From assembly GCA_964437985.1 (NCBI GenBank), contig CAYTIL010000025.1, positions 58,669 through 122,668 of the forward strand: a stretch of DNA of 64,000 nucleotides, written 5' to 3'. This document shows positions 44,790-60,950 of this stretch, piece by piece (position 1 is the stretch's first letter; every line of letters starts with the position of its first letter). A model generated the notes under the pieces. That model saw only the letters and a program-made list of their open reading frames with translations, searched no databases and was not told the origin of the DNA. The position numbers were made by a program, and so were the translations under genes. Source of the DNA: an uncultured Acidobacteriaceae bacterium (lineage in GTDB: Bacteria; Acidobacteriota; Terriglobia; Terriglobales; Acidobacteriaceae).

Positions 44790-46373
44790 CTACTCTTTCC
44801 GCCAACTCCACTCGTTCGCGTATTTCGGAAACTCGTACCAGGAATCGCAGACGAACTCGCCCAGACCGGCCACCCGGACATCGGCCGCGAACAGGTAATC
44901 GGGATAGGCGATAGGCAGAAACACCGCCTCTTCCGTCAGCAGCCGCACCAGCCGCAGGTACAGGCGCCGCGCCAGCGGGCGGCGCGCGGGACCGACGGCG
45001 CGCACCCGCTCCAGCAACCGGTCCACTTCCCGATTGTTGTACGCCCCGTAGTTCTGGCTGCCGCGCGAGTGATACTTCTTGAACAGGTTATCGCCGGGAT
45101 CGAGCAGGCCGCCCCATCCGCCGATGAACCCATCGTAGCGGTCGCCCATGTTGTCCGAGAGGCGGGCGTACTCGGCGTTGTCCACCAGGTGCAGGTTCAC
45201 GCGGATGCCCAGCGGCGCAAGCTGTTCGCGCACCAGTTCGGCAGCGGTGCGGCGGAAGACTTCGTCCTTCCACACAATCAACTCCAGCGTGAGCATTTGT
45301 CCGTCGCGTTCACGCCACCCCTCCGCGTTCTTCTTCCAGCCGGCGGCCTCGAGCAGGCGCGCGGCCGCCGACGGATCGTGGCGGCGCCGGTTCATCACCG
45401 GGTCGAACGCCCAGGAAGCCGGAGGAATCGGGCTGTAGGCCGGCTGCCCGAATCCGGCGATGGCCTTCTCCACGATCTGCTCGCGGTGGATGGCCAGATC
45501 AATGGCGCGGCGCACACGCGCGTCCTTCAGCGCCGGACGCCGCAGATTCAGCGGCAGGGCGCGCCAGGCTCCAGTGCGCATCCGGTAAAGCCGCAGCTTG
45601 AGATTGGCCTGCAAGCGCGCCACGTGTTGCGGCTTCACTTGCGTCAAATGGACTTCGCCGCGGAGCAGCGCCTCGGCGCGCGCGTCGTCGTCGGCAATCA
45701 CGCGAATCACCAGGCGCGGGATGGGCGGCGCGCCGAAGTGGTAGGCCGTGTGCCCGTCCAGCACGAACTCGCCGGCGTTGTTTCGCCCGAAAAACTTGTA
45801 CGGGCCGGTCCCGACCGGGTTTTGGTTCAGATCGTGCGCGCCCGCGAGCTGGTGCGCAGGAAGCACGGGAACTTCAGTCAGCGGTGCGAGAAATCCGGTC
45901 TCCGGATAGTGCAGCCGGAAGATGACTTCGTGCGTGCCCGCCTTCTCCCAGGCGCGGACCATGGCCTGGTTCTGATCGAAGGAAGTTTCCGTCTGCGGGT
46001 CGAAGAGCCGCTTCCAGGTAGCGATGACGTCGTCGGCGGTGAAGGGCTGCCCATCGTGCCACTGCACGTTGCGCCGCAGGCGGATGCGCCATGTGAGGCC
46101 GTCGGAGCTGACGGTGTAAGACTCGGCCAGGTCGCCGACGATTCGTCCCTCGTGGTCCGGCCAGAAGAGCCGGCTGTAGACCGCGCTGGAAACTTCGTTC
46201 CACTCGTTGAGGTCGAGCGTAGGATCAAACCCGCGCGGCTCCAGGCCGGCACCGTAAATCAGCGCCGCAGGCTTCGGCGCTTCCTCTGCCCGGCCGCCCA
46301 GCGGACCCAGCAAGCACACACCGAGCAGGAGGGCGATGGGTCGCATTGCAGTTCGCAGCATTGCGGTCGGCAT
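44790..46373 (-). CDS. ABC transporter substrate-binding protein, family 5 (peptide/nickel, DppA/OppA-like)
   Basis: 527 aa with a signal peptide and an SBP_bac_5 body. No cognate permease genes lie in the window. Confidence 0.85.
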   Translation of the reverse strand: MPTAMLRTAMRPIALLLGVCLLGPLGGRAEEAPKPAALIYGAGLEPRGFDPTLDLNEWNEVSSAVYSRLFWPDHEGRIVGDLAESYTVSSDGLTWRIRLRRNVQWHDGQPFTADDVIATWKRLFDPQTETSFDQNQAMVRAWEKAGTHEVIFRLHYPETGFLAPLTEVPVLPAHQLAGAHDLNQNPVGTGPYKFFGRNNAGEFVLDGHTAYHFGAPPIPRLVIRVIADDDARAEALLRGEVHLTQVKPQHVARLQANLKLRLYRMRTGAWRALPLNLRRPALKDARVRRAIDLAIHREQIVEKAIAGFGQPAYSPIPPASWAFDPVMNRRRHDPSAAARLLEAAGWKKNAEGWRERDGQMLTLELIVWKDEVFRRTAAELVREQLAPLGIRVNLHLVDNAEYARLSDNMGDRYDGFIGGWGGLLDPGDNLFKKYHSRGSQNYGAYNNREVDRLLERVRAVGPARRPLARRLYLRLVRLLTEEAVFLPIAYPDYLFAADVRVAGLGEFVCDSWYEFPKYANEWSWRKE

Positions 46374-46497: not shown

Positions 46498-48855
46498 TTG
46501 ACTTCACAAGAGGAAAAATTCGCGCCCTCGGCCGCGCCCGTTTACTGGCGCGTAGAGGGCAGCCTGCTCAACCTGAGCGCGGTGCGCCCGGTGGCCTTCT
46601 TCACCTGGAACGCGCAGAGCTTCGTAGAGCGCTGGGCGCGCCGCGGCGGCCTGGCGCTGATGGCCCTGGTGCGGCCGCTGCTTTATGCCGCGCACCGCAC
46701 CTTCGCCACCCGCGTACTGCACGCGGTGCTGCGCGGCGTGAGCCGCGATCGCCTGGATCTGTTGGGCGAAGAATTCTTCCACTACAAACTGCTGCCGCAC
46801 CTGAAGCCCGGCGGCGTAGCCATGCTGAAGGAAGTGCTGGCCGCGGGCGAGCGCGTGGTGCTGGTGAGCCAGGGGCTCGACCTGGTGATGCGCCCCCTGG
46901 CGCGACACCTGGGCGTGGAGCGCATCCTCGCCAACCGTCTGGAGTTTCGCGACGGCCTGGCCACCGGACGCCTGCTCGATCCGGTGATTCGGCCGCGGGG
47001 CGGGTTGGCCCGGCTGTTCGGAGGAAATCCCGATGGCCGCGTGCCCGAAGAGCGCCTGGCGCAAAATCTCGACATAGCCGGCGGAGCCGACGCCTTGCGC
47101 CGCGCTGCTATCCCTCCCGGCCGCCAACCGCTCAAGCGGTCCCGGCCGGCTATCGTGTTCGATCATCAGAAGACTCCGGCGCAACTGAGCGTGCGCCGCG
47201 CCTTGGCCGGTAAGCACGTGATGCTCGTCGGCGTGACCGGGTTCATCGGCAAGGTGTGGCTGGTGAAATTGCTCGAAGACTTGCCGGAGATCGGCAAGGT
47301 GTATCTGCTCATCCGGCGGCAGAAGTCGAATCCTTCCGTGCGCCGCTTCGAGAAAATCGTGGAGGAGTCGCCCGTCTTTGATTTGCTGGAGGAACGCCAC
47401 GGCGCAGGCCTGGCGCGCTTCTTGAGCGAGCGCATCGAAGTGGTGGAGGGCGACGTTTCCGTGCCTGGCTTGGGCCTCGACCAGGCCACGCACGCGCGTT
47501 TGCACAAGCACCTGGATCTGGTCATCAACAGTTCCGGGCTTACCGACTTCAATCCCGACCTGCGCGACGCGCTGGCCGGCAACGTCGAGGCCGTGCTCCA
47601 CCTGATCGAGTTCCTGCGCGCCTGCGATCACGCCGCGCTGCTGCACCTTTCCACCTGCTACGTCGCCGGCTATGTGGACGGCCGCGTGCCCGAGGAGCTG
47701 GCGCCCAATTACACATCGGTGAGGATTCCGGGTTTCGATGCGGAACGCGAGCTCCAGTCGCTGCACGCGCTGGTGAAGACGGCCACCCAGGAATCCGAGG
47801 GCCCCAAGGTCGCTGAAGAGTTGCGCCGGCAGCTTGCGGAAAAACGCGGCGCCGCCGCGCCTCTTTCCGGCGAGGCCCTGGAAATCCAGTTGCGCCGCGG
47901 GCGCGTGCGCTGGCTGCGCAACCATCTGACCGAAGCCGGCGTGAAGCGCGCCAAAGAGCTGGGCTGGCCCAACACTTACACCCTCACCAAGAGCCTGGCA
48001 GAGTCGCTGCTAGCCACGCGTGGCAGCGGCTTGCCCATCGCGGTGGTGCGCCCCTCCATTGTCGAAAGCTCGACCCACCAGCCCTTTCCCGGATGGAACG
48101 AGGGCATCAATACCTCGGCGGCGCTTTCTTACCTGCTGGGGACTTACTTCCGCCAGCTTCCCTCGAACGAGCGCAAGTGCCTGGACATTATTCCCGTCGA
48201 CCTGGTTTGCCGGGGCATGCTGCTGATCGCCGCGGCGCTGGTCGAGCGGCAGCACCAGCCCTTGTACCAGCTTGCCACCTCGGCCAGCAATCCCTGCGAC
48301 ATGCGGCGCTCCATCGAGCTCACCGGCCTGGCGCACCGCAAGCACTACCGCGCCCAGGAAGGACTGGAGCACTGGCTGCGCCTGCGTTTCGATACCATTG
48401 CCGTCTCCAAGTCCCGCTACCAGCGGCTTTCGGCGCCGGGACAGAAAGCCATTGTGCGCGCCATCCGGCTGGTGGCGTCGCCCATTCCGCTCATGGGGCC
48501 GTCGCTGGTTCGGGCGGAGCGCAACCTCGACCGCGTGGAGCGGCTGATCGAACTCTACGAGCCTTTCATTCTCGAAAACGAGCAGGTGTTCGAGGCCGAA
48601 AACGTGGAACTGCTGGCGCACGCCCTGCCGCCCGCGGAGCAGGACGCTTTCGGCTACGACGCTCGCGCCATTGACTGGTGGGAGTACTGGATCAACATCC
48701 ACGTGCCCGCGCTGCGCCGCTGGTCGTATCCTCTCATCGAGGGACGCCCCTTGGAGACGCGCCCCAAACGCGACTTCCGGCTTGACGCCCAGCCCGGCTC
48801 CACGCCGGCCGCGGGCCCCGGCATCCCCGCAGGAGCGACATGGCCATCTTCCTGA
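46498..48855 (+). CDS. Fatty acyl-CoA reductase (NAD_binding_4/male-sterility domain) fused to an N-terminal HAD-IB-like domain that lacks the DxD catalytic motif
   Basis: The C-terminal part has [18 protein letters not shown]…YLLIRRQ… and [13 protein letters not shown], typical of FAR/thioester reductases. The N-terminal ~230 aa resemble HAD-IB. The position of motif I reads [10 protein letters not shown] instead of FDxDGTL and no GDxxND motif IV is seen. The TTG start at 46498 is uncertain. Confidence 0.7.
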
Positions 48856-49997
48856 CCGGCTGCACCGGCTACATCGGCGCGCATGTGGTCGCGGGCCTGC
48901 TGGAAAACCACCAGGACCCGCTCAACCTGCTGGTGCGCGCCAAAGATCAGCGCGAGGCCGAGGAGCGCTTGTGGCGCTCGCTGCAACTGCATCTGGATTT
49001 CCCTCGCTTCTACAACTTCCTCAAGTCGCGGGTCACAGTTTTCCGCGGCGACCTCACCCATCCTCGCTTCGGCCTGAACCCGGACGACTATCGCCGCCTG
49101 CTGGAAACCACGGATTCCGTAATCCACGTGGCCGCGTCGCTGAACCGCAAATCGGAGAAAAGCTGCCTGAACGTGAACCTGCGGGGGACGCTGGAGGTGG
49201 TGCAGCTGGCGCGCCGCGCCCAGGACCTCCACGGCCTGCGGCGCATGAGTCACGTTTCCACGGTCGCGGTGGCCGGGCAGAGGAGCCACGAAGTGGTCCG
49301 CGAAGACCAGGCGGTGGACTGGCAGCGCTCCGACTACGATCCCTACGCGCGCACCAAGAAGTTTTGCGAGCACATGATCCGCGAGCTGCTCCCCGAGGTG
49401 CCGCGGACCATCTTCCGCCCCTCCATCGTGCTGGGCGACAGCCGCCGCGCCGAAACCACGCAGTTCGACATGGTGCGCGCTTTCGTCTTTCTCGCCGGGC
49501 TGCCGGTGCTGCCCTTCCGCCCCAGCGACAAGGTGGATATTGTGCCCGTGGACTACGTCGCCGACGCCATCGTCACCCTGCACCAGAAGGAAAAGCCGGC
49601 GCACGAGATCTATCACCTGTCGTCGGGCACGGGCTCGCAAACCTTTCGTGAGCTCACCGACGCACTGGCCCAAGCGCGGCACAAATCGGGGCCGTGGTTT
49701 CTGCCCTCGCTGGAAGGCGCGTTTGGCTCCATCGTCAACTCGCTCGCCAGTCGCAAAGGCAGCGTGGGCCATGGAGCGTCGCTGCTCAAGGTCTTCTTCC
49801 CTTACCTGGTGTGGAACACGGTGTTCGACAACACCCGCGTGGTGGCGGAAATGGGACGGCAGCCGCGGCCGTTCTCCGAATACAGCCTGCCGCTGCTCAA
49901 TTTCAGCCGCGAAAACCATTTCACGTTCCGCTATCAGGATTGGCCCGTCGCCGAAGCCATCGCCGAGGGACGCCCGGCGGGAGGGCCGGCGACATGA
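48840..49997 (+). CDS. SDR-family NAD-dependent thioester-reductase-like protein (NAD_binding_4)
   Basis: [13 protein letters not shown] Rossmann motif, VTVFRGDL…FGL, and [11 protein letters not shown] (YxxxK). It overlaps the upstream gene by 16 nt. Confidence 0.7.
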
Positions 49998-51406
49998 TGG
50001 ACCTGGTGCTGGAAGCCTGGGTCAGTGGACTCATCGAGACCTCGAAGCTCGCCTGGATGCTGGGCGCCGGGCATCCATGGAAGCCCGGGGAGAAGCTCAG
50101 CCTGCTGTTCGCCGGATACAACGGAACCCGCAACACCGGCTCGGACGTGCGCGTGGAGGAGATGCTGCGCCAGGTGCGCCGCATCCTGGGCGACGACCAC
50201 CTGCGCGTCGCGGTGATGACCCAGAACTTCGACCTCTCGCGCGGATATTTTGCCGGCGCCGAGCAGGTCCGCCTGCCCGACATTTTTCCTCCCTTTCTGT
50301 TTCGCGAAGTGCGCAAGCACCACGGCGTGGTGGCGTGCGAAGGCTCCATGTTCAAGAGCAAGTTTGCCAACGCCCTGACCACCATGATGATCGGCTCGCT
50401 GGGCATCGCCTCGGCAGAGAACAAGCTGAGCGTGGGCTACGGCGCCGAGGCCGGACACATGGACAAGCTGCTGGCGCGCATGTGCAGCCGCTACTGCAGC
50501 CAGTCGCTCATCCTCACGCGCAACGACGAATCGCGCGACGTGCTGCGCGAACTGGCCGTGCCCACCGAGCCCGGCACCGACACCGCCTGGACCTTCGAGC
50601 CGCACCCGCGCGAATACGGGCAAAAGATGCTGCGCGACCTGGGATGGGACGGCCGCCAGCCGGTGCTGGCCGTGTGCCCCATCAATCCCTTCTGGTGGCC
50701 GGTGAAGGCGTCGGTGACGCGCTACGCCGCGCGCGCGCTCACGGGCGCATATCGCAACAGTCACTACCGCAGCGTGTATTTCCATAACTCGGGGCCGCAG
50801 GTGGACGCGGCCTACGAGCGTTATCTCACCGCCATCGCCAGCGCCGTGGAAGCGTTTCGCAAGGAGCACGGCGCGTTCGTCATCCTGGTGGCCATGGAGA
50901 TGCTGGATGCGCGCGCCTGTCATGCGCTGGCGGAAAAGCTGAAGGGCGCACCCACGCTGGCCTCCGACCAATACAACATGTACGAGCTGGTGAGCGTGCT
51001 GCGCGCCTGCCCCCTGATGGTGTCGTCGCGTTATCACGGCATCGTCACTGCCATGCCGGGGCTGGTGGCGTCGGCGGGCATCACCATGGACGAGCGCATC
51101 CGCAACCTGATGCACGAGCGCGGACACCAGCACCTGCTGCTCACGGTGGACGACCCCGAGCTCGAGGGTAAACTGCGCGGCGTTCTCGACCAGCTTTGCC
51201 GCGAGCGTGAGGCCGTGGCCGACGGCATCGGGCGCAGCGTGGTGCGCAACCTGAAGGCCATGGCGCGCATGGGCGTCTACTTCGAAGCGCACGTGCAGCA
51301 GCGCTATCCGGAGTTTCCCTTCCGCACCGGCCAACTGAGTTGGGAAGACTACCTGCCGCCGCTCAGCCCCGGCCTCCGCACCCTCGTGGAAACCCACGGC
51401 GGATGA
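49994..51406 (+). CDS. Polysaccharide pyruvyl transferase family protein (CsaB/WcaK-like)
   Basis: 470 aa from MMDLVLEAW. The start overlaps the upstream stop (ATGATGA). PS_pyruv_trans-like body (…[17 protein letters not shown]…, …[11 protein letters not shown]…). Confidence 0.65.
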
Positions 51407-53058
51407 ACTTCCTGGAAAACATCCTGCAGCGACTGGCGCGAGAGCCAGCACGCGTCGTGATCCAGGAAGTGCGCGACGGAAAGCTGGTTTCTGCTAACCC
51501 CGGCGAGTTGCTGGCGCTGGTGAACGCGGCGCGCTCGTTTCTCCGCAACGCCGGGCTGAAGCCCGGCGACCGCTGCGGGCTGCTGGCGAGCAACAGCATC
51601 CGCTGGACGGCGCTCGACCTCGCCATCATGGCCGAGGGCGGGATCGTGGTGCCGCTCTACGCGCGCCAGGCAGCGAAAGAGCTGGTGGCGATGATGAAGG
51701 ACTGCTCGCCCTCGCTGCTGTGCTGCGGCGACGCCGCCTTGCGCGACGCGGTCCGCAGCGAGTGGCCGGAGGCGCCCCGCGCAGTTCTCTTCGACGAGAT
51801 CTTCGTCGCTCAGGACGCCGGCGGCTCGGCGCCCGCGGCGCTTTCCGACGCCGACCCGGTCACCATCATCTATACCTCCGGCACTTCGGGTGAGCCCAAG
51901 GGCGTTGTGCTCAACGTGGGCAATCTGAACCACATGATTCCCTGCACCGGCGCACGGCTGGATTTGCTGATGGGCGGCGCGCGCTCGCAGCCCGACCGCA
52001 TCTTCCACTACCTGCCCTGCTGCTTTGCCGGGTCGTGGATTCTGATGCTCACCGCGCTCTCGCTCAACAGTGTGCTCACACTCTCTACCGACCTCACGAA
52101 GCTGGCCGACGAAATGAAGCTCGCCGCGCCCGATTATTTCCTGAATGTTCCCGCGCTACTGGAGCGGGTGCGCCGCGGCATTGAGGATCAGCTTGCGCAG
52201 CGCGGCGGGTTTGCGCAGAACGCTTTCAGCAAAGGCCGCGCCGCATGGATGCGGCGGCGTGAGGGCCAATCCGCTGGCTTCGACTTCGTGTGGCGGTCAC
52301 TAGCCGAAGGCATCGTGTTTCCCGCCATCCGCAAGAAGCTGGGCCCGAACCTGCGCGCGCTGATTTGCGGATCGGCGCCGCTGGCGGTCGAGACCCAGCT
52401 CTTTTTCATGATGCTGGGGCTGCCGGTGTTGCAGGTGTATGGACTCACCGAGACCACCGCCATCTGCACGCTCGATCATCCGCAGCGCGTGGAACCGGGC
52501 CGCGTGGGCCCGGCGATTCCGCAAGTGGAGATGAAGCTGGGTGAGAACAGCGAGATTCTGGTGCGCGGTCCCAACATCTTTCCCGGATACTGGAACCGTC
52601 CGCAGGAAACGGCGAAAGCGCTGCGCGGCGCTCCGGACGGCAAGTGGTTCCACACCGGCGATCAGGGCGAAGTGGATGCTGCGGGCAACTGGCGCATCAT
52701 CGGCCGGGTGAAGAACCTGATCATTCCCGCTTCCGGCCACAACATCGCGCCCGAACCCATCGAAGACGCGCTCCTGCAACGCCTCCCCGGGGCGCAGCAG
52801 GTGGTGCTGCTGGGCAACGGCCGCAGCTTCCTGGCGGCGCTGATTGCCGGCAGCGTTGCGCGCGAGCAAGTCCAGAGTGTGCTAGATGCGATCAACGACG
52901 GCCTGCCGCATTACAAGCAGGTGCGCCGCTTCCACCTGATCGCCGAGCCTTTCACCATCGAGAGCGGCCTGCTCACCGCCAACGGCAAGCTGAAGCGGGA
53001 CGCGATTGCAGCGCGGTATGCGGCGGAGATTGAGCAGATGTACCGTAACCCGGCCTGA
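51403..53058 (+). CDS. AMP-dependent long-chain fatty acid-CoA ligase (FadD-like)
   Basis: AMP-binding motif IIYTSGTSGEPKGVVL. Linker/hinge motifs (…GYGLTETT…, …WFHTGDQGEVD…, …GRVKNLI…). ATGA overlap with the upstream gene. Confidence 0.85.
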   Translation: MNFLENILQRLAREPARVVIQEVRDGKLVSANPGELLALVNAARSFLRNAGLKPGDRCGLLASNSIRWTALDLAIMAEGGIVVPLYARQAAKELVAMMKDCSPSLLCCGDAALRDAVRSEWPEAPRAVLFDEIFVAQDAGGSAPAALSDADPVTIIYTSGTSGEPKGVVLNVGNLNHMIPCTGARLDLLMGGARSQPDRIFHYLPCCFAGSWILMLTALSLNSVLTLSTDLTKLADEMKLAAPDYFLNVPALLERVRRGIEDQLAQRGGFAQNAFSKGRAAWMRRREGQSAGFDFVWRSLAEGIVFPAIRKKLGPNLRALICGSAPLAVETQLFFMMLGLPVLQVYGLTETTAICTLDHPQRVEPGRVGPAIPQVEMKLGENSEILVRGPNIFPGYWNRPQETAKALRGAPDGKWFHTGDQGEVDAAGNWRIIGRVKNLIIPASGHNIAPEPIEDALLQRLPGAQQVVLLGNGRSFLAALIAGSVAREQVQSVLDAINDGLPHYKQVRRFHLIAEPFTIESGLLTANGKLKRDAIAARYAAEIEQMYRNPA

Positions 53059-53082
53059 GCGGTATGATTTCGAATGAATACC

Positions 53083-53241
53083 ATGAAGAAAGCCCGCAGA
53101 GCGGCCCCCAACAGCGAAGGCCCGCGCCGACCAGACCGCGCACCGCTGGCGCGCGAGTGCGCCAAGCTCGATCCTAAGTCAGAACAGCGCCTGGCGGACG
53201 AAGGGATGGACGCCGAGCTGGAGCAATGGCCGGAATACTAA
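53083..53241 (+). CDS. Possible small ORF (52 aa, [52 protein letters not shown])
   Basis: Short ORF in the 250 nt gap after the acyl-CoA ligase. There is no RBS or homology support. It is followed by a family D repeat at 53250..53270. Confidence 0.2.
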
Positions 53242-53307
53242 CGGCCTGACGCCCGACACCTGACACCTGCTTCAGAACGGGGCCAACTGCCCGTCGGTGG
53301 GCTCGGC

Positions 53308-54681
53308 TCAACAGAACCAGGGCTCGGTGAGATACGGAATGGTGGCGCGCGCCGGGCCCGGCGCCACAGCCGGAAGCGCGGGGAGAGACTGCTGCAGCGC
53401 GCGTCGCGCCAGCTTCCAGACTTCGTAAAATATTGTCCTGCGGCCCCATTCTTTCTCGGCGCCGGCTTCGACCATCGCCGCCACCTCGCGCTGCAGCCGG
53501 TCCACGCGCGGGTGGGGATGCTGCCAGCGATAGCTGAGCGCTGCTTCGTCAAAAGGCCCGATCAGCTCCTGCACTTCTTGCAGCTCGAGCAGGCGCGAGC
53601 CCGCTGGAATCAGCAAGCGCAACATGAGCTGCACCGGCGGAACGTTTTCCACCAGATCGAGATCCGCCAGCGTGCGCAGCAGTTCTTCGTAGCCTTCGAG
53701 CGTGGTCCAGGGATGGAAAGCGACGAACGTAGGCGCCAGCACCAGGCCGGTCTCGCGGAACAGCGAAACCAGGCGGAAGAAATCGGCGCGGGTATGGCCC
53801 TTGTCGAGCAGTGCGAGCACGCGGTCGTCGAGCGACTCGACGGCGGTGGTAACGAAGGCGCAGCCGGTCGAGCGCAGCGCCGACAGATGCCGCGCGTGCT
53901 TCAGCAGGTGTTCGACTTTGATGGTGGCGTCGTAGCTGATTTGCGGATGCTCGCGGTGCAGCGCCTGCACCAGTTCGAGCGCATGGCGCACCCCGTTGAA
54001 GAAGTCGGGATCGCCGAAAGTAATGTGCTGGGCCCCGGCAGCCACCTGCCGTCGAATGTCTTCCAGCACCACTTCCCGCTCCACAATGCGGAACTTGCCG
54101 CCGTAAACCGGCACGATGGGACAGTGGCGGCACAGATGCTTGCACCCGCGGCTGGCCTCGGTGTAGCCCACGATGCGCTCGGTGCCGTCGGGCAGCACTA
54201 GATGCGAATAACGTTTGAGTTCCGGAAGGCCGCTGCGATCGGGCACGCGAAACTGTTGCCGCTCCAGGCTGATCTCGGGCTCGCGCTGCGGCTGCGGTCC
54301 GTTCCCTCCTCCTGCCGCGCGCAATCTTTGCGCCAGGGCCAGCAGGCCGGACTCGAACTCTCCTCCCAGAATGGTGGCCACGCCCGACCGCCGCAACATT
54401 TCAGCGTTCATGGGCGCATAGAGTCCGTAGGCGCACAGGTGCGCCGCCGGATTCAGCGCTCCCGCCCGAGCGATGACGCGCAGGGCAATGCGCGTGGCGG
54501 TGTGCATGGGCAGGTAGAAAGCGATCAGACTGGCGTCGCGCACCGCCGGTTCGTTCAGCGGCGTTTGCGAAAGGTCGAGGACGCCGGCGTAGAAACCATC
54601 TTCCCGCAGCCAGGCCGCCGGCGACGCCAGGCCGAAGGGCTGGTGGCCGGATTCGTAGGTGGAGACAAGAAGAACATTCAT
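53308..54681 (-). CDS. B12-binding domain-containing radical SAM protein
   Basis: N-terminal B12-binding Rossmann-like region. Radical SAM motif CKHLCRHCP (CxxxCxxC). The start was taken at the ATG MNVLLVSTYE rather than the track start 54726. Confidence 0.8.
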   Translation of the reverse strand: MNVLLVSTYESGHQPFGLASPAAWLREDGFYAGVLDLSQTPLNEPAVRDASLIAFYLPMHTATRIALRVIARAGALNPAAHLCAYGLYAPMNAEMLRRSGVATILGGEFESGLLALAQRLRAAGGGNGPQPQREPEISLERQQFRVPDRSGLPELKRYSHLVLPDGTERIVGYTEASRGCKHLCRHCPIVPVYGGKFRIVEREVVLEDIRRQVAAGAQHITFGDPDFFNGVRHALELVQALHREHPQISYDATIKVEHLLKHARHLSALRSTGCAFVTTAVESLDDRVLALLDKGHTRADFFRLVSLFRETGLVLAPTFVAFHPWTTLEGYEELLRTLADLDLVENVPPVQLMLRLLIPAGSRLLELQEVQELIGPFDEAALSYRWQHPHPRVDRLQREVAAMVEAGAEKEWGRRTIFYEVWKLARRALQQSLPALPAVAPGPARATIPYLTEPWFC

Positions 54682-58039: not shown

Positions 58040-58642
58040 ATGAGCACGCTGGGACAAAAGGCTGCGGCCGCGCAAACCGTTTCCATCCAGGAGTTCGTCG
58101 CCGGGCTGCGCCAGTTTCCGGAAGCGGCGTTTAGCGGAACCCGGACCATCCAGGACTACCTTGCGCAGCATCCCGTGGATCCCGCTTCGCTCACGCCCTA
58201 TCTGTTCTGGGACCGCCAGCACTACACCCGCAACCTCATCGACGCCACCCCGCTGTACGACCTCATCGCCATCTGCTGGGAGGCTGGACATCACAGCTCC
58301 ACCCACAACCATCGCGACCAGAACTGCTGGATGGCGGTGCCTATCGGCCGGCTGCTGGTGCAGAACTATCGCGTGCTCTTCCAGGACCTGAAGGCAGGCA
58401 AGTGCGACATCCGCCCCACCGACATCGTGGAGATGAACGCCGCCAACCCACTGGCTGTGAATCCCGCCGAGCCCGTGCACAAGGTCTATAACCCGCGCGA
58501 GTTCGGTGAACGCGCCGTGAGCCTGCACCTGTATTCCCGCCCTTTCGATTCCTGCGACGTCTACTCCGAAGAACAGCACACCTGCGGGGAGATCAAGCTG
58601 AGCTACAACTCGCAGTACGGCGAGGTTTGCAAGAAGGCATGA
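58040..58642 (+). CDS. Cysteine dioxygenase type I family cupin protein
   Basis: Cupin metal motif …GHHSSTHNHRDQNCW… and the conserved Tyr region of CDO/MDO-type thiol dioxygenases. Confidence 0.65.
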   Translation: MSTLGQKAAAAQTVSIQEFVAGLRQFPEAAFSGTRTIQDYLAQHPVDPASLTPYLFWDRQHYTRNLIDATPLYDLIAICWEAGHHSSTHNHRDQNCWMAVPIGRLLVQNYRVLFQDLKAGKCDIRPTDIVEMNAANPLAVNPAEPVHKVYNPREFGERAVSLHLYSRPFDSCDVYSEEQHTCGEIKLSYNSQYGEVCKKA

Positions 58643-58875: not shown

Positions 58876-59595
58876 ATGCCTGCCAACGGCGCTGCCATCC
58901 GCACCGAAGACGTCCGCCGCCACTACCGCATGGGCGAAGCCGAAATCCGCGCCGTGGACGGCGTGACCCTGGAAGTTCCCTCGGGAGAATTCGTGGCCCT
59001 GCTGGGCACTTCCGGATCGGGAAAGTCCACGCTGCTGAACCTGATCGCCGGCCTGGACCGGCCCACCACCGGCTCCATCGTGGTGCACGGGCGCGACCTG
59101 GCGAAGATGTCGTCGCTGGAGCTGGCCGAATACCGCCGCCACACCGCCGCCATGGTCTTCCAGGCGTTCAACCTTATTCCTTCGATGACCCTGCAGCAGA
59201 ACGTTGACCTTCCGCTGCGCTTCGCCGAAGTGGAGCGCCGCGAGCGCGAGCAGCGGGTGCGTGACGCCCTGGAGCGCGTGGGCCTGGGCGGGCGCAGCGG
59301 CCATCGCCCCAGCGAGCTCTCCGGCGGCGAGCAGCAGCGGGCATCGCTGGCGCGGGCGCTGGTGAACCGCCCCTCGCTGCTCCTGGCCGACGAGCCCACC
59401 GGTAACCTCGACAGCCGCACCGGCGAGGAAATCATGGGACTCATCCGCGACCTCAACCAGTCGCTGGGCATGACCGTGGTGCTGGTGACTCATGAACGGC
59501 CGCTGGCCGAGCGTTTCGCCGGCCGTTTCCTGTTCATGTCCGACGGCAAACTGGTGGCCTCGGAAGGCGCCTCCTCCCGGGGAGCACAGTCATGA
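58876..59595 (+). CDS. ABC transporter ATP-binding protein (MacB/LolD-type)
   Basis: Walker A GTSGSGKST, signature LSGGEQQR, Walker B LLLADEPTGNLD. Confidence 0.9.
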   Translation: MPANGAAIRTEDVRRHYRMGEAEIRAVDGVTLEVPSGEFVALLGTSGSGKSTLLNLIAGLDRPTTGSIVVHGRDLAKMSSLELAEYRRHTAAMVFQAFNLIPSMTLQQNVDLPLRFAEVERREREQRVRDALERVGLGGRSGHRPSELSGGEQQRASLARALVNRPSLLLADEPTGNLDSRTGEEIMGLIRDLNQSLGMTVVLVTHERPLAERFAGRFLFMSDGKLVASEGASSRGAQS

Positions 59596-60950
59596 AGGCA
59601 CCCGACCTGTTCGATCTGGCCACCCGCAATCTGCGCCAGTCGATGCTGCGCAATTCGCTGACCACGCTGGGCATTGCCGTGGGCGTGGCCTCGCTGGTGG
59701 CCATGCTGTCGCTGGGCATCGGCTTGCAGGAAATGGCCGGCCGCCGGCTGCAAAGCTCGGGCCTGTTCGACACTATCTTTGTGACTTCGCGCCAGGACTT
59801 CCGCGGCGTGGAGCGCGACGAGCCGCGCAAGCCGGCGGAGGATGTCCGCTCGCTCAACGACGCCGCCCGCACCCAGCTCCGTCAGCTCGACGGCGTGATT
59901 GAGGTGTTTCCGGAAATTCGCCTCACCACCGAAGCGCGCTACGAGGGCAAGATGCACTTTGCTTTCGTGGCCGCGCTGCCGCCCTCGGCACGCGAGAACG
60001 AAGCGTTTGAGACCCTCCAGGGATCGTTCTTCTCCGGGCCCGTGGCCGAGGAAGCCATCCTTGCGCAGGAGTTCGCCAAGGAACTGAGCCCGCAGCCCGC
60101 TTCGCTGCTGGGCAAGGAGATCGTGGTGCGCTACGCCGAGCGCCAGCCTCTGGCCGGCGGCGACGGCGCCGCTGCTGCCGGCGCCCAGAGCGCGAACGAC
60201 GACGACGACCCCTTCGGCTTCACCGTGGTACGCCGCGATCAGAAGCTGCGCATCGTGGGCATCGTGGAGCGCGAGCCCTTCGGCGGCGTGCGCGCGGTTT
60301 CCTCGGCGCGCATCTTCCTGCCCACCGGCCTCGCGGAAAATCTGAACGTCCTGCAGTTCTCCGACCTGCGCGGCGCCACCCGCTCCAGCAAAGAGCGCAC
60401 CTACGTGAGCCTGGCGGTCCGTGTGGACAGCCCGGGGCGCGTCGAGGAAGTGCAGAACGCCATCAAGAAGATGGGCTTCCGCACCTTCTCGGTTTTTGAC
60501 GCCGCCCGCAACCTGCGCCGCTTCTTCGCCGTGCTCGACCTGTTCCTCGGCATCTTCGGTAGCCTGGCGCTGGCGGTGGCGTCGCTGGGAATTGTGAACA
60601 CGCTGGTAATGGCCATCCTGGAACGGCGCCGCGAAATCGGCATTATGAAGGCCGTGGGCGCCTCCGACGCCGACGTCAAGCGGCTCTTCTTCGTCGAAGC
60701 CGGAGTGATGGGCGCATTCGGCGGAGCATTGGGCGTCCTGCTGGGCTGGGCCCTGGGCCGCTCCATCAACTGGGCAACCAACCTCTACCTCGCGCGCCAG
60801 CAGCTTCCCCCGGAGCAGATCTGGTCGGTGCCCTGGTGGCTGGTGGCCGCGGCCCTGGGCTTCGCGGTTCTGGTCAGCCTGGTCTCCGGACTCTATCCCG
60901 CGGCGCGCGCCTCGAAACTCGATCCCGTGCAGGCCCTGCGCTATGACTAG
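59592..60950 (+). CDS. ABC transporter permease (FtsX/MacB family)
   Basis: N-terminal TM segment, a large periplasmic MacB_PCD-like domain, then a C-terminal FtsX 4-TM bundle (…LVMAILERRREIGIMKAVGAS…). It overlaps the ATPase gene by 4 nt. Confidence 0.85.
   Translation: MKAPDLFDLATRNLRQSMLRNSLTTLGIAVGVASLVAMLSLGIGLQEMAGRRLQSSGLFDTIFVTSRQDFRGVERDEPRKPAEDVRSLNDAARTQLRQLDGVIEVFPEIRLTTEARYEGKMHFAFVAALPPSARENEAFETLQGSFFSGPVAEEAILAQEFAKELSPQPASLLGKEIVVRYAERQPLAGGDGAAAAGAQSANDDDDPFGFTVVRRDQKLRIVGIVEREPFGGVRAVSSARIFLPTGLAENLNVLQFSDLRGATRSSKERTYVSLAVRVDSPGRVEEVQNAIKKMGFRTFSVFDAARNLRRFFAVLDLFLGIFGSLALAVASLGIVNTLVMAILERRREIGIMKAVGASDADVKRLFFVEAGVMGAFGGALGVLLGWALGRSINWATNLYLARQQLPPEQIWSVPWWLVAAALGFAVLVSLVSGLYPAARASKLDPVQALRYD

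What the first reader, a model, noticed from the sequence alone, without database searches (positions are those of the whole stretch)
46498..54681. Translationally coupled FAR - thioester reductase - pyruvyl-transferase-like - acyl-CoA ligase operon facing a B12-radical SAM gene: candidate unusual-lipid (fatty alcohol/ether or modified lipid) pathway
Four plus-strand genes are linked by 16, 4 and 4 nt overlaps (ATGA junctions at 49994 and 51403). The products are: a fatty acyl-CoA reductase with an extra N-terminal domain; a second NAD_binding_4 reductase; a protein of the polysaccharide pyruvyl-transferase fold, a family that also holds enzymes transferring enol-pyruvyl or alkyl groups; and a long-chain acyl-CoA synthetase. 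A B12-binding radical SAM gene (class B rSAM, typically a C-methyltransferase) is encoded divergently downstream. In sequence the encoded steps are activation of a fatty acid, reduction to an aldehyde or alcohol, and transfer of a three-carbon or alkyl unit. That combination recalls the components of bacterial ether-lipid or alkylglycerol (elb-type) pathways. In an Acidobacteria-like genome it could relate to the ether-linked or methyl-branched membrane-spanning lipids of that phylum. This functional assignment is inference, not established annotation.
Basis: inference. Interest (0 to 1): 0.7.

Follow-up and report, generated by a model that had tools for sequence, protein, structure and literature searches.

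The report
Conserved fatty-alcohol lipid operon in Acidobacteria
Four overlapping genes form the core of an uncharacterised, widely conserved lipid-building gene cluster of soil Acidobacteria that may make fatty-alcohol or ether-type lipids, while the neighbouring radical SAM gene is an unrelated selenoprotein.

Summary
The four plus-strand genes and their 16/4/4-nt overlaps are real. They encode a pseudo-HAD-FAR fusion, a thioester reductase, a GT-B enzyme that is a distant pyruvyl-transferase relative, and a long-chain acyl-CoA synthetase. They keep this order in every one of 81 related Terriglobia loci where the contig allows, and in distant genomes (38-68% GC).

The fifth gene does not belong to the unit. 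It is convergent with the operon, not divergent. It is absent from all 81 loci. Its B12-domain hit is below the Pfam cut-off. It is a CUAEP-tail radical SAM selenoprotein (ArsL relative) that reads through TGA to 53272.

The window holds a truncated version of the cluster. Elsewhere the operon continues with an enoyl-CoA hydratase, ACP, a second adenylating ligase and a DAGK-type lipid kinase. One distant genome adds a PlsC acyltransferase. In about a fifth of the loci a Tes (tetraether synthase) homologue lies upstream.

The component set resembles a dissociated Myxococcus elb ether-lipid system with added PEP-transferase, hydratase and kinase. The product is unknown, and I found no paper describing this cluster.

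The parts
46498..48855 (+). g1, 785 aa: fusion of an N-terminal HAD-IB-like domain with an alcohol-forming-type fatty acyl reductase (NAD_binding_4 + Sterile C-terminal domain)
   Evidence: Pfam HAD 1.6e-16, NAD_binding_4 3.4e-53, Sterile 2.7e-09. The PDB hit is fatty acyl-CoA reductase 7eoz, E 2.6e-41. GxxGxxG (GVTGFIGK) and YxxxK (YTLTK) are visible in the translation. Orthologue present in 68/68 loci.
46621..47016 (+). HAD-like domain of g1 (residues 42-173 matched by Pfam). It is a pseudo-phosphatase: motif I reads W-R-V-E-G-S-L instead of DxDGT
   Evidence: The nucleophile Asp is replaced by Arg and the motif is invariant in 67 orthologues. The same RVEG occurs in the stand-alone HAD gene of L088. 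The domain is a separate gene in L088, L090 and the P0123 contig.
47224..48216 (+). NAD_binding_4 reductase domain of g1 (residues 243-573)
48520..48720 (+). 'Sterile' FAR C-terminal domain of g1 (residues 675-741)
48840..49997 (+). g2, 385 aa: stand-alone thioester-reductase-type SDR (NAD_binding_4). Its start overlaps the g1 stop by 16 nt
   Evidence: Pfam NAD_binding_4 5.4e-50. TIGR01746 thioester reductase 140 bits (below the 213 cut-off). NRPS MxcG TR domain 109 bits. Junction sequence. Present in 75/75 loci.
49994..51406 (+). g3, 470 aa: GT-B fold enzyme, a distant member of the polysaccharide (ketal) pyruvyl-transferase superfamily; probably PEP-dependent. ATGA overlap with g2
51403..53058 (+). 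g4, 551 aa: long-chain acyl-CoA synthetase type adenylating enzyme (AMP-binding + AMP-binding_C_3). ATGA overlap with g3
   Evidence: Pfam 7.3e-54. FadD11 model 199.5 bits (below the 950 cut-off). YTSGTSGEPKG motif in the translation. Present in 74/75 loci. A natural g3+g4-type fusion protein, P0178 (967 aa), exists.

Best explanation
The four genes are the 5' core of a conserved, uncharacterised lipid-biosynthesis cluster. Its full form is HAD-like / FAR / thioester reductase / PEP-dependent GT-B transferase / acyl-CoA synthetase / enoyl-CoA hydratase / ACP / second adenylating ligase / DAGK-type lipid kinase, with a PlsC acyltransferase added in one distant genome.

Most likely mechanism, all steps inferred: a fatty acid is activated by g4 or by the ligase+ACP pair. 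It is reduced to a fatty aldehyde or alcohol by g1 and g2. A PEP-derived three-carbon unit is attached to the lipid hydroxyl by g3. In the full cluster the product is hydrated, reduced, phosphorylated and acylated to give a fatty-alcohol-derived (ether-type) polar lipid.

In function it is a dissociated analogue of the Myxococcus elb ether-lipid system rather than a demonstrated member of it. In this window's lineage the cluster is broken after g4, and the radical SAM gene next to it is an unrelated neighbour.

Shown: gene structure, domain identities, conservation and synteny, retention of catalytic motifs. Inferred: substrates, order of steps, product.
For: Synteny. g1-g2-g3-g4 are invariant in order and strand in 81 Terriglobia loci at 58-82% identity. 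At least 594 GTDB species carry a g3 relative.

Downstream genes in the same loci: ECH 71/71, ACP 67/68, second ligase 59/64, DAGK 59/63.

The same cluster occurs outside the class.
- L083 (g3 53% identical).
- L086 (48% identical, 38% GC), which has a PlsC with NHxxxxD and PEGG motifs.
- L087, a Pseudomonadota MAG.
- L088.
- L090, from an 11.1-Mb genome.

Fusion and fission events link the parts. HAD is fused to FAR here and is a separate gene elsewhere. g3 is fused to a g4-type synthetase in P0178.

Catalytic motifs are intact.
- g1 and g2 carry GxxGxxG and YxxxK.
- g4 carries the P-loop-like AMP motif.
- The ECH has both catalytic Glu residues.
- g3 has the Arg and His that align with WcaK. 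The equivalent positions in CsaB are proposed PEP binders: H308A/R mutants were inactive, and R148 was chosen as a predicted PEP-site residue (PMC10435577).

The elb operon contains the same kinds of parts: ElbB is HAD-like, ElbD is FAR1-like+ACS+ACP+AGPAT, and ElbA/ElbE are NAD-epimerase type (PMC9131029).

A Tes homologue (NF045702, 318.9 bits) lies upstream on the same strand in 13/60 loci, and immediately adjacent in 7.
Against: - No experiment or paper connects these genes to any lipid; literature searches found none.
- The window itself lacks ECH, ACP, the second ligase, the kinase and PlsC.
- The cluster is near-universal in Terriglobia, yet cultured subdivision 1 strains rarely show ether lipids (PMC13159169). 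The product may therefore not be an ether glycerolipid, or it may be made only under certain conditions.
- g3 homologues at 45-50% identity also occur alone in unrelated contexts (L082, L084).
- All characterised pyruvyl transferases act on sugars, not lipids.
Confidence: 0.55

Rival explanations
1. The cluster makes a fatty-alcohol- or diol-derived lipid that is not a glycerol ether. One example: ECH plus the reductases produce an alkane-1,3-diol, which g3 caps with a pyruvate ketal to give an anionic head group. g4 then activates that carboxylate for further coupling.
For: All characterised members of g3's family form ketals across two hydroxyls (PMC10435577). ECH with both Glu residues could supply a 3-hydroxyacyl thioester. 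The g3-ACS fusion fits activation of the new carboxylate. Ether lipids are rare in cultured subdivision 1 strains.
Against: No such lipid is known to me. The DAGK-type kinase and PlsC fit a glycerolipid-like acceptor better. The core retained in the window lacks ECH.
Confidence: 0.22
2. One reading: a five-gene pathway in which the adjacent B12-radical SAM enzyme C-methylates the chains of the lipid made by the four-gene operon.
For: Physical adjacency in the window and in the closest relative L085.
Against: The gene is convergent, at the end of a different minus-strand gene run (YggX, SPFH). It is absent from 81/81 other loci that carry the operon. It belongs to the CUAEP-tail selenoprotein family, whose nearest characterised relative is ArsL, a 3-amino-3-carboxypropyl-transferring enzyme. 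Its B12-domain hit is below the cut-off.
Confidence: 0.03
3. g3 is an ordinary polysaccharide pyruvyl transferase for EPS or cell-wall glycans that merely sits among lipid-metabolism genes. The rest is fatty-acid activation and reduction for wax or storage lipid.
For: Source annotations name it 'polysaccharide pyruvyl transferase WcaK-like', and it passes the Pfam threshold.
Against: Neither the gene tables of nine loci nor the ORF clustering of all loci showed a glycosyltransferase, flippase or polymerase as a recurrent neighbour; one GT87 lies at the far edge of L001. The g2/g3 and g3/g4 overlaps, conservation across phyla and the fusion with the synthetase argue for one pathway. No WS/DGAT wax synthase is present. 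g3 scores far below the CsaB equivalog cut-off and carries an insertion of roughly 45 residues relative to WcaK.
Confidence: 0.06

Closest known systems
Myxococcus xanthus elb ether-lipid operon (elbA-E; ElbD = FAR1-like + ACS + ACP + AGPAT; Lorenzen 2014, as reviewed in PMC9131029)
   Same: Same kinds of parts. A HAD-like protein (ElbB) corresponds to the g1 N-terminal domain or the stand-alone HAD gene. A FAR-type reductase, an adenylating enzyme and an ACP are present in both. An AGPAT/PlsC acyltransferase is present in L086. NAD-epimerase-family reductases (ElbA/ElbE) correspond to g2. Elb-like clusters with DAG kinases and a split ElbD have been reported (bioRxiv 10.64898/2026.06.23.733905).
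   Different: No multidomain ElbD: every activity is a separate gene, and HAD is fused to FAR instead. This cluster adds a PEP-transferase-like GT-B enzyme, an enoyl-CoA hydratase, a second adenylating enzyme and a lipid kinase. The window version has no ACP or AGPAT. Sequence orthology was not tested. Whether ElbC (unknown function) is related to g3 is unknown.
Ketal pyruvyl transferases CsaB / WcaK / Pvg1 (PF04230), and by chemistry MurA/MurB (enolpyruvyl ether reduced to lactyl ether)
   Same: GT-B fold. Homology to WcaK (hhalign 97.3%) and to the CsaB model (E 1.2e-18). The conserved Arg and His positions implicated in PEP binding are retained.
   Different: Only about 25% identity over 254 aligned columns. 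An insertion of roughly 45 residues (about residues 229-290). No polysaccharide genes nearby. Always embedded between a thioester reductase and an acyl-CoA synthetase. The acceptor is presumably a lipid alcohol, which would be unprecedented for this family.
Eukaryotic/peroxisomal ether-lipid route (FAR1, GNPAT, AGPS, alkylglycerol kinase)
   Same: It starts from an acyl-CoA synthetase plus an alcohol-forming FAR carrying the same NAD_binding_4 + Sterile architecture. A kinase and an acyltransferase act late.
   Different: No AGPS (FAD-dependent alkyl-DHAP synthase) and no GNPAT. The ether-forming step, if there is one, would have to be carried out by g3.
Tes (archaeal tetraether synthase) homologues of Acidobacteria, proposed but unproven brGDGT/iso-diabolic acid coupling enzymes (PMC8941075)
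   Same: A Tes homologue lies upstream on the same strand in 13/60 related loci.
   Different: Not present in this window. It scores 318.9 bits, below the 450 equivalog cut-off. The linkage is partial.

Membership tests
elb-type ether-lipid cluster | Multidomain ElbD (FAR-like + AMP-binding + PP-binding + AGPAT in one protein, or split in two) | tested here: not met
   Pfam scans of g1-g4 show no PP-binding or Acyltransferase domain. In orthologous clusters these activities are separate genes.
elb-type ether-lipid cluster | HAD-like ElbB and NAD-epimerase-family ElbE encoded alongside | tested here: inconclusive
   The g1 N-terminus is HAD-IB-like and g2 belongs to the Epimerase/NAD_binding_4 family.
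elb-type ether-lipid cluster | Required for alkyl/vinyl ether lipid production | not testable with these tools
   Needs genetics and lipidomics.
Polysaccharide pyruvyl transferase (PF04230) | Pfam gathering score and homology to a characterised member | tested here: met
   28.0 bits against 25.3. hhalign against E. coli WcaK: probability 97.3%, E 1.9e-11.
Polysaccharide pyruvyl transferase (PF04230) | Conserved PEP-site Arg and His (CsaB R148, H308) | tested here: met
   R176 and H348 are invariant in 49 family members. They align with the R and H of WcaK's RESVS and TRLH motifs. The mapping onto CsaB numbering is inferred.
Polysaccharide pyruvyl transferase (PF04230) | CsaB equivalog score | tested here: not met
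   TIGR03609: 67.5 bits against a cut-off of 213.1.
Polysaccharide pyruvyl transferase (PF04230) | Glycan-biosynthesis gene context / saccharide acceptor | tested here: not met
   The recurrent neighbours in the 81 loci and in distant clusters are lipid enzymes, not GT, Wzx or Wzy genes. The acceptor itself was not tested.
Alcohol-forming fatty acyl reductase (FAR) | NAD_binding_4 + Sterile domains, GxxGxxG and YxxxK | tested here: met
   (7eoz, E 2.6e-41). Activity and chain length were not tested.
HAD phosphatase | Motif I DxD with nucleophilic Asp | tested here: not met
   The motif is W-R-V-E-G-S-L, invariant in 67 orthologues.
Class B (B12-dependent) radical SAM methyltransferase (for the neighbouring gene) | B12-binding domain above threshold; membership of a methylase family | tested here: not met
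   B12-binding 21 bits, below 32.1. The best families are the CUAEP-tail rSAM at 612 bits (above 500) and ArsL at 281.6 bits.
CUAEP/CCAEP-tail radical SAM selenoprotein (NF040546) (for the neighbouring gene) | Equivalog score and a C-U-A-E-P tail with an in-frame UGA | tested here: met
   612.4 bits. The sequence reads ...W-F-C-TGA-A-E-P-T-D-G-Q-L-A-P-F-stop. The tail is identical in L085, and the sequences diverge only after the second stop.

The most novel reading that the evidence does not exclude
The cluster encodes a previously unknown, O2-independent and radical-free way to make a glycerol ether. The three-carbon backbone is built on the lipid from PEP.

1. g1 makes a fatty alcohol.
2. 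g3 transfers enolpyruvate from PEP to it, giving a 2-O-alkyl enolpyruvate (MurA-like chemistry).
3. g4 converts this to the CoA thioester.
4. The crotonase hydrates the acrylyl double bond to 2-O-alkylglyceroyl-CoA.
5. g2 reduces it to 2-O-alkylglycerol.
6. The DAGK-type kinase phosphorylates it.
7. PlsC acylates it.

Together with the sometimes-adjacent Tes homologue, this could be the missing ether route of aerobic Acidobacteria toward brGDGT-type lipids.
Probability: 0.12. Interest if true: 0.9.

Novelty: new variant of a known kind. Interest (0 to 1): 0.62.

Why it matters
Acidobacteria are regarded as a main source of brGDGTs, which are widely used palaeotemperature and pH proxies. Most aerobic members lack Mss and Ger, and only subdivision 4 has elb. 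How they make ether or membrane-spanning lipids is therefore an acknowledged open question (PMC13159169, PMC11868695).

This operon is present in at least 594 GTDB species, is highly conserved, and in a subset sits next to the Tes homologue. No function was found for it in the literature library searched. It gives a concrete gene set of 4 to 9 genes for heterologous expression and knockout. It also predicts a new acceptor class, a lipid alcohol, for the PEP-dependent pyruvyl-transferase family.

Tried and rejected
- The search for related loci with the 49-sequence alignment A1 failed because the alignment was too divergent; a closer alignment, A2, worked.
- Exact look-ups of the window g3 and of P0001 found no record.
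- Sequence searches of PDB with g3 alone, or with its family profile, gave nothing meaningful. Only fold comparison and hhalign against WcaK were informative.
- Foldseek against PDB gave generic GT-B hits with TM about 0.5.
- The afdb50 library was unavailable, so I could not look for a Myxococcus ElbC or for cultured-strain homologues by structure.
- De novo ORF clustering of the loci was noisy because of antisense ORFs in high-GC DNA. I used tblastn with explicit denominators instead.
- Promoter and terminator scans of both operon ends found nothing.
- The RNA fold after the Sec UGA shows a hairpin but is no better than shuffled sequence (z = 0.46). The Sec call therefore rests on the family model and on the conserved read-through tail.
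- No tRNA gene, and hence no tRNA-Sec, lies in the window.
- Considered and rejected for lack of defining genes in the Pfam-annotated gene tables of the loci: the sphingolipid pathway (no Spt, no ceramide synthase), ole olefin synthesis (no OleA thiolase), wax ester synthesis (no WS/DGAT), and the AGPS route (no AGPS).
- Literature searches for pyruvyl transferase together with FAR, ether lipid or Acidobacteria returned nothing relevant.

Full report
OBSERVATION

The region holds four plus-strand genes with strong coding signal (GC3 0.80-0.85).
- g1 is 46498-48855 and starts with TTG, the only in-frame start upstream of the conserved region.
- g2 is 48840-49997.
- g3 is 49994-51406.
- g4 is 51403-53058.

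The g2 ATG lies 16 nt before the end of g1. The g2/g3 and g3/g4 junctions are both ATGA. GGAG-type ribosome-binding sites precede g2 and g3.

The Pfam and NCBIfam scans confirm the products.
- g1 is HAD (PF12710) + NAD_binding_4 + Sterile. It matches the solved fatty acyl-CoA reductase 7eoz at E 2.6e-41.
- g2 is a stand-alone thioester-reductase-type NAD_binding_4 protein.
- g3 matches PS_pyruv_trans at 28.0 bits, just above the 25.3 cut-off. It matches the CsaB model at E 1.2e-18 over almost the full model length, but far below that model's equivalog cut-off.
- g4 is an AMP-binding + AMP-binding_C_3 long-chain acyl-CoA synthetase, closest to FadD11.

THE FIFTH GENE IS NOT PART OF THE UNIT

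The radical SAM gene lies on the minus strand downstream of g4. It is therefore convergent with the operon, not divergent. It is the last gene of a separate minus-strand run: an unknown gene, an SPFH/flotillin gene, another unknown, YggX, then the rSAM gene.

Its B12-binding match is 21 bits, below the 32.1 cut-off. Its family assignment is clear. It scores 612 bits on NF040546, 'CUAEP/CCAEP-tail radical SAM (seleno)protein' (cut-off 500). The next-best model is ArsL, the non-canonical radical SAM enzyme of arsinothricin synthesis that transfers the 3-amino-3-carboxypropyl group of SAM.

The apparent stop TGA at 53310-53308 is followed in frame by GCC GAG CCC ..., which gives C-U-A-E-P-TDGQLAPF-stop. 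In the closest relative, L085, this tail is identical, and the two sequences diverge only after the second stop. The gene is therefore a selenoprotein ending at 53272.

In 81 related loci carrying the operon this gene is never present. It is adjacent only in L085, whose g3 is 88% identical to the window's.

CONSERVATION OF THE FOUR GENES

g3 belongs to a large and tightly conserved family.
- A word-indexed search scored more than 7800 proteins at E ≤ 0.001, and the best 120 are 72-90% identical.
- The 50%-clustered library holds 845 representatives at E ≤ 0.001.
The best 80 are all Acidobacteriota-type contigs, a few binned under other names.

tblastn with explicit denominators finds g1 in 68/68 loci, g2 in 75/75 and g4 in 74/75. 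They are always in the same order and on the same strand.

THE WINDOW HOLDS A TRUNCATED VERSION OF A LARGER CLUSTER

In the other Terriglobia loci the operon continues as follows.
- An enoyl-CoA hydratase, in 71/71 loci.
- An ACP, in 67/68.
- A second adenylating ligase, in 59/64.
- A YegS/DAGK-type lipid kinase, in 59/63.
- In about 50 of the 81 loci, a small unknown protein, a VKOR and an esterase.

None of these is in the window or next to the operon in L085. The window's lineage has evidently broken the cluster after g4.

The cluster is also found well outside the class.
- L083 (g3 53% identical): g3-ACS-ECH-ACP-ligase-kinase.
- L086 (48% identical, 38% GC): FAR-TR-g3-ACS-ECH-ACP-ligase-DAGK-PlsC, mostly with overlapping or abutting genes. 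The PlsC carries NHxxxxD and PEGG motifs.
- L087, a Pseudomonadota MAG: FAR-TR-g3-ACS.
- L088: HAD, FAR, TR, g3, ACP and two ligases, with an ECH nearby.
- L090, from an 11.1-Mb genome: HAD-FAR-TR-g3-ACS-ECH-ACP-ligase.

Two g3 homologues at 45-50% identity stand alone in unrelated contexts (L082 and L084). The association therefore holds for the orthologous clade, not for the whole superfamily.

Gene fusions link the parts. HAD is fused to FAR in Terriglobia but is a separate first gene elsewhere. One representative, P0178 (967 aa), fuses g3 to a g4-type synthetase. That is a single sequence, so a gene-calling artefact cannot be excluded.

WHAT THE INDIVIDUAL PROTEINS LOOK LIKE

- g1 and g2 both carry GxxGxxG and YxxxK.
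- The HAD-like domain is not a standard phosphatase. Motif I reads W-R-V-E-G-S-L, with Arg in place of the nucleophilic Asp. This is invariant in 67 orthologues, and the same RVEG occurs in the stand-alone HAD of L088.
- Profile-profile comparison with E. coli WcaK nevertheless gives 97.3% probability, E 1.9e-11. Four motifs align: EGS with GGS, R176-N-D-E-S180 with R-E-S-V-S, D196-T-A-W with D-T-A-W, and S-R346-Y-H348 with T-R-L-H.
- The family-invariant residues include R176, D196 and H348.
- In CsaB, H308 mutants (H308A, H308R) are inactive and R148 lies in the predicted PEP site (PMC10435577). g3 is therefore most likely a PEP-dependent transferase. It carries an extra segment of roughly 45 residues (about 229-290) relative to WcaK.
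- The cluster's ECH keeps both catalytic glutamates, in GGGFE and FPE.

LINK TO MEMBRANE-SPANNING LIPIDS

In 13 of 60 loci with enough upstream sequence (16 counting partial hits), a ~715-727-aa radical SAM protein lies upstream of g1 on the same strand. In 7 of these it is immediately adjacent, with a gap of 147-903 bp. Its best NCBIfam match is tetraether lipid synthase Tes, at 318.9 bits over the whole model, below the 450 cut-off.

Acidobacterial Tes homologues are the proposed but unproven coupling enzymes for brGDGT and iso-diabolic acid (PMC8941075). This window contains no Tes homologue.

INTERPRETATION

The closest described system is the Myxococcus elb operon (PMC9131029). Its parts are as follows.
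- ElbB is HAD-like.
- ElbD is FAR1-like + ACS + ACP + AGPAT.
- ElbA and ElbE are NAD-epimerase-family proteins.
- ElbC has no known function.

The cluster described here holds the same kinds of parts as separate genes. It adds a PEP-transferase-like enzyme, a hydratase, a second ligase and a lipid kinase. I therefore read the four genes as the core of a dissociated, elb-like pathway for a fatty-alcohol-derived lipid.

It is not a demonstrated elb member. The defining multidomain ElbD is absent, and sequence orthology could not be tested.

The field states that ether-bond and membrane-spanning-lipid synthesis in most aerobic Acidobacteria is unexplained: they have no Mss, Ger in only two species, and elb only in subdivision 4 (PMC13159169; PMC11868695). 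No paper in the library connects a pyruvyl-transferase-like gene or this FAR operon with these lipids.

A caution applies. The operon is nearly universal in Terriglobia, whereas ether lipids are rarely detected in cultured subdivision 1 strains. The product may be a different lipid, or one made only under certain conditions.

MOST NOVEL READING (inference only)

Every gene of the full cluster can be given a necessary role in one scheme.
1. The FAR makes a fatty alcohol.
2. g3 adds it to PEP, giving a 2-O-alkyl enolpyruvate (MurA-type chemistry).
3. g4 makes the CoA thioester; the g3-ACS fusion fits these being consecutive steps.
4. The crotonase hydrates the acrylyl double bond to 2-O-alkylglyceroyl-CoA.
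5. The thioester reductase yields 2-O-alkylglycerol.
6. The DAGK-type kinase phosphorylates it and PlsC acylates it.

Against this scheme, from my own recollection and not checked here: the acidobacterial monoethers reported so far are 1-O-alkyl, and no pyruvyl transferase is known to use a lipid acceptor. I give this reading about 12%.

VERDICT

The unit is real, widespread and uncharacterised, and it bears on an open question in bacterial lipid and brGDGT biosynthesis. Its product remains inferred.

Noticed in passing
window 53272-54681 (-), Sec codon at 53310-53308: The radical SAM gene is a selenoprotein of the CUAEP-tail family (NF040546, 612 bits). An in-frame TGA is followed by AEPTDGQLAPF-stop, and this tail is identical in L085. 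Gene callers truncate the gene at 53308. The nearest characterised relative is ArsL (C-As bond formation). Neither the function of this family nor the role of its C-terminal Cys-Sec pair was found in the literature library.
   Followed up: partly
window 53074-53241 (+): A 55-aa ORF (MNTMKK...EQWPEY) fills the 213-bp gap between the g4 stop and the true end of the rSAM gene. It has no tblastn match in any related locus, and L085 has a much shorter gap there. It is probably spurious or lineage-specific.
   Followed up: partly
L006:1800-3983 and 15 other loci (e.g. L012:4210-6273, L054:4146-6305, L069:4214-6334): A Tes (tetraether synthase) homologue lies on the same strand upstream of g1 in 13/60 loci (16 counting partial hits). 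It is directly adjacent in 7. In the others it is separated by insertions such as a chromate transporter or an NHL-repeat protein.
   Followed up: partly
P0178 (967 aa) and P0131 (640 aa), representatives: These look like natural fusions: g3-like + g4-like synthetase (P0178), and FAR 'Sterile' C-terminus + g3-like (P0131). They could be Rosetta-stone evidence for coupled steps, or frameshift and gene-calling artefacts.
   Followed up: partly
window 46498-47187 (g1 residues 1-230); L088:6617-7297; L090:10001-10681: This HAD-IB-like subfamily replaces the catalytic DxD with R-V-E. It is conserved across phyla, both as a fusion and as a stand-alone gene. It is a pseudo-phosphatase of unknown role that always sits first in the cluster.
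   Followed up: partly
window 44790-46373 (-) and L087:4853-6529 (-): An SBP_bac_5 solute-binding protein gene lies upstream of the cluster on the opposite strand, both in the window and in a distant Pseudomonadota MAG. It is absent from all 81 Terriglobia loci, so this is probably coincidence.
   Followed up: no
window 58040-58642 (+): A cysteine dioxygenase type I gene lies next to a MacB-type ABC exporter pair (58876-60950). It is unrelated to the finding.
   Followed up: no
L001:16909-18628 and about 50 other loci: Downstream of the lipid kinase, a small unknown protein (~142 aa), a VKOR-family protein and an esterase are co-conserved in about 50 of the 81 loci. Whether they belong to the pathway is unknown.
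   Followed up: no
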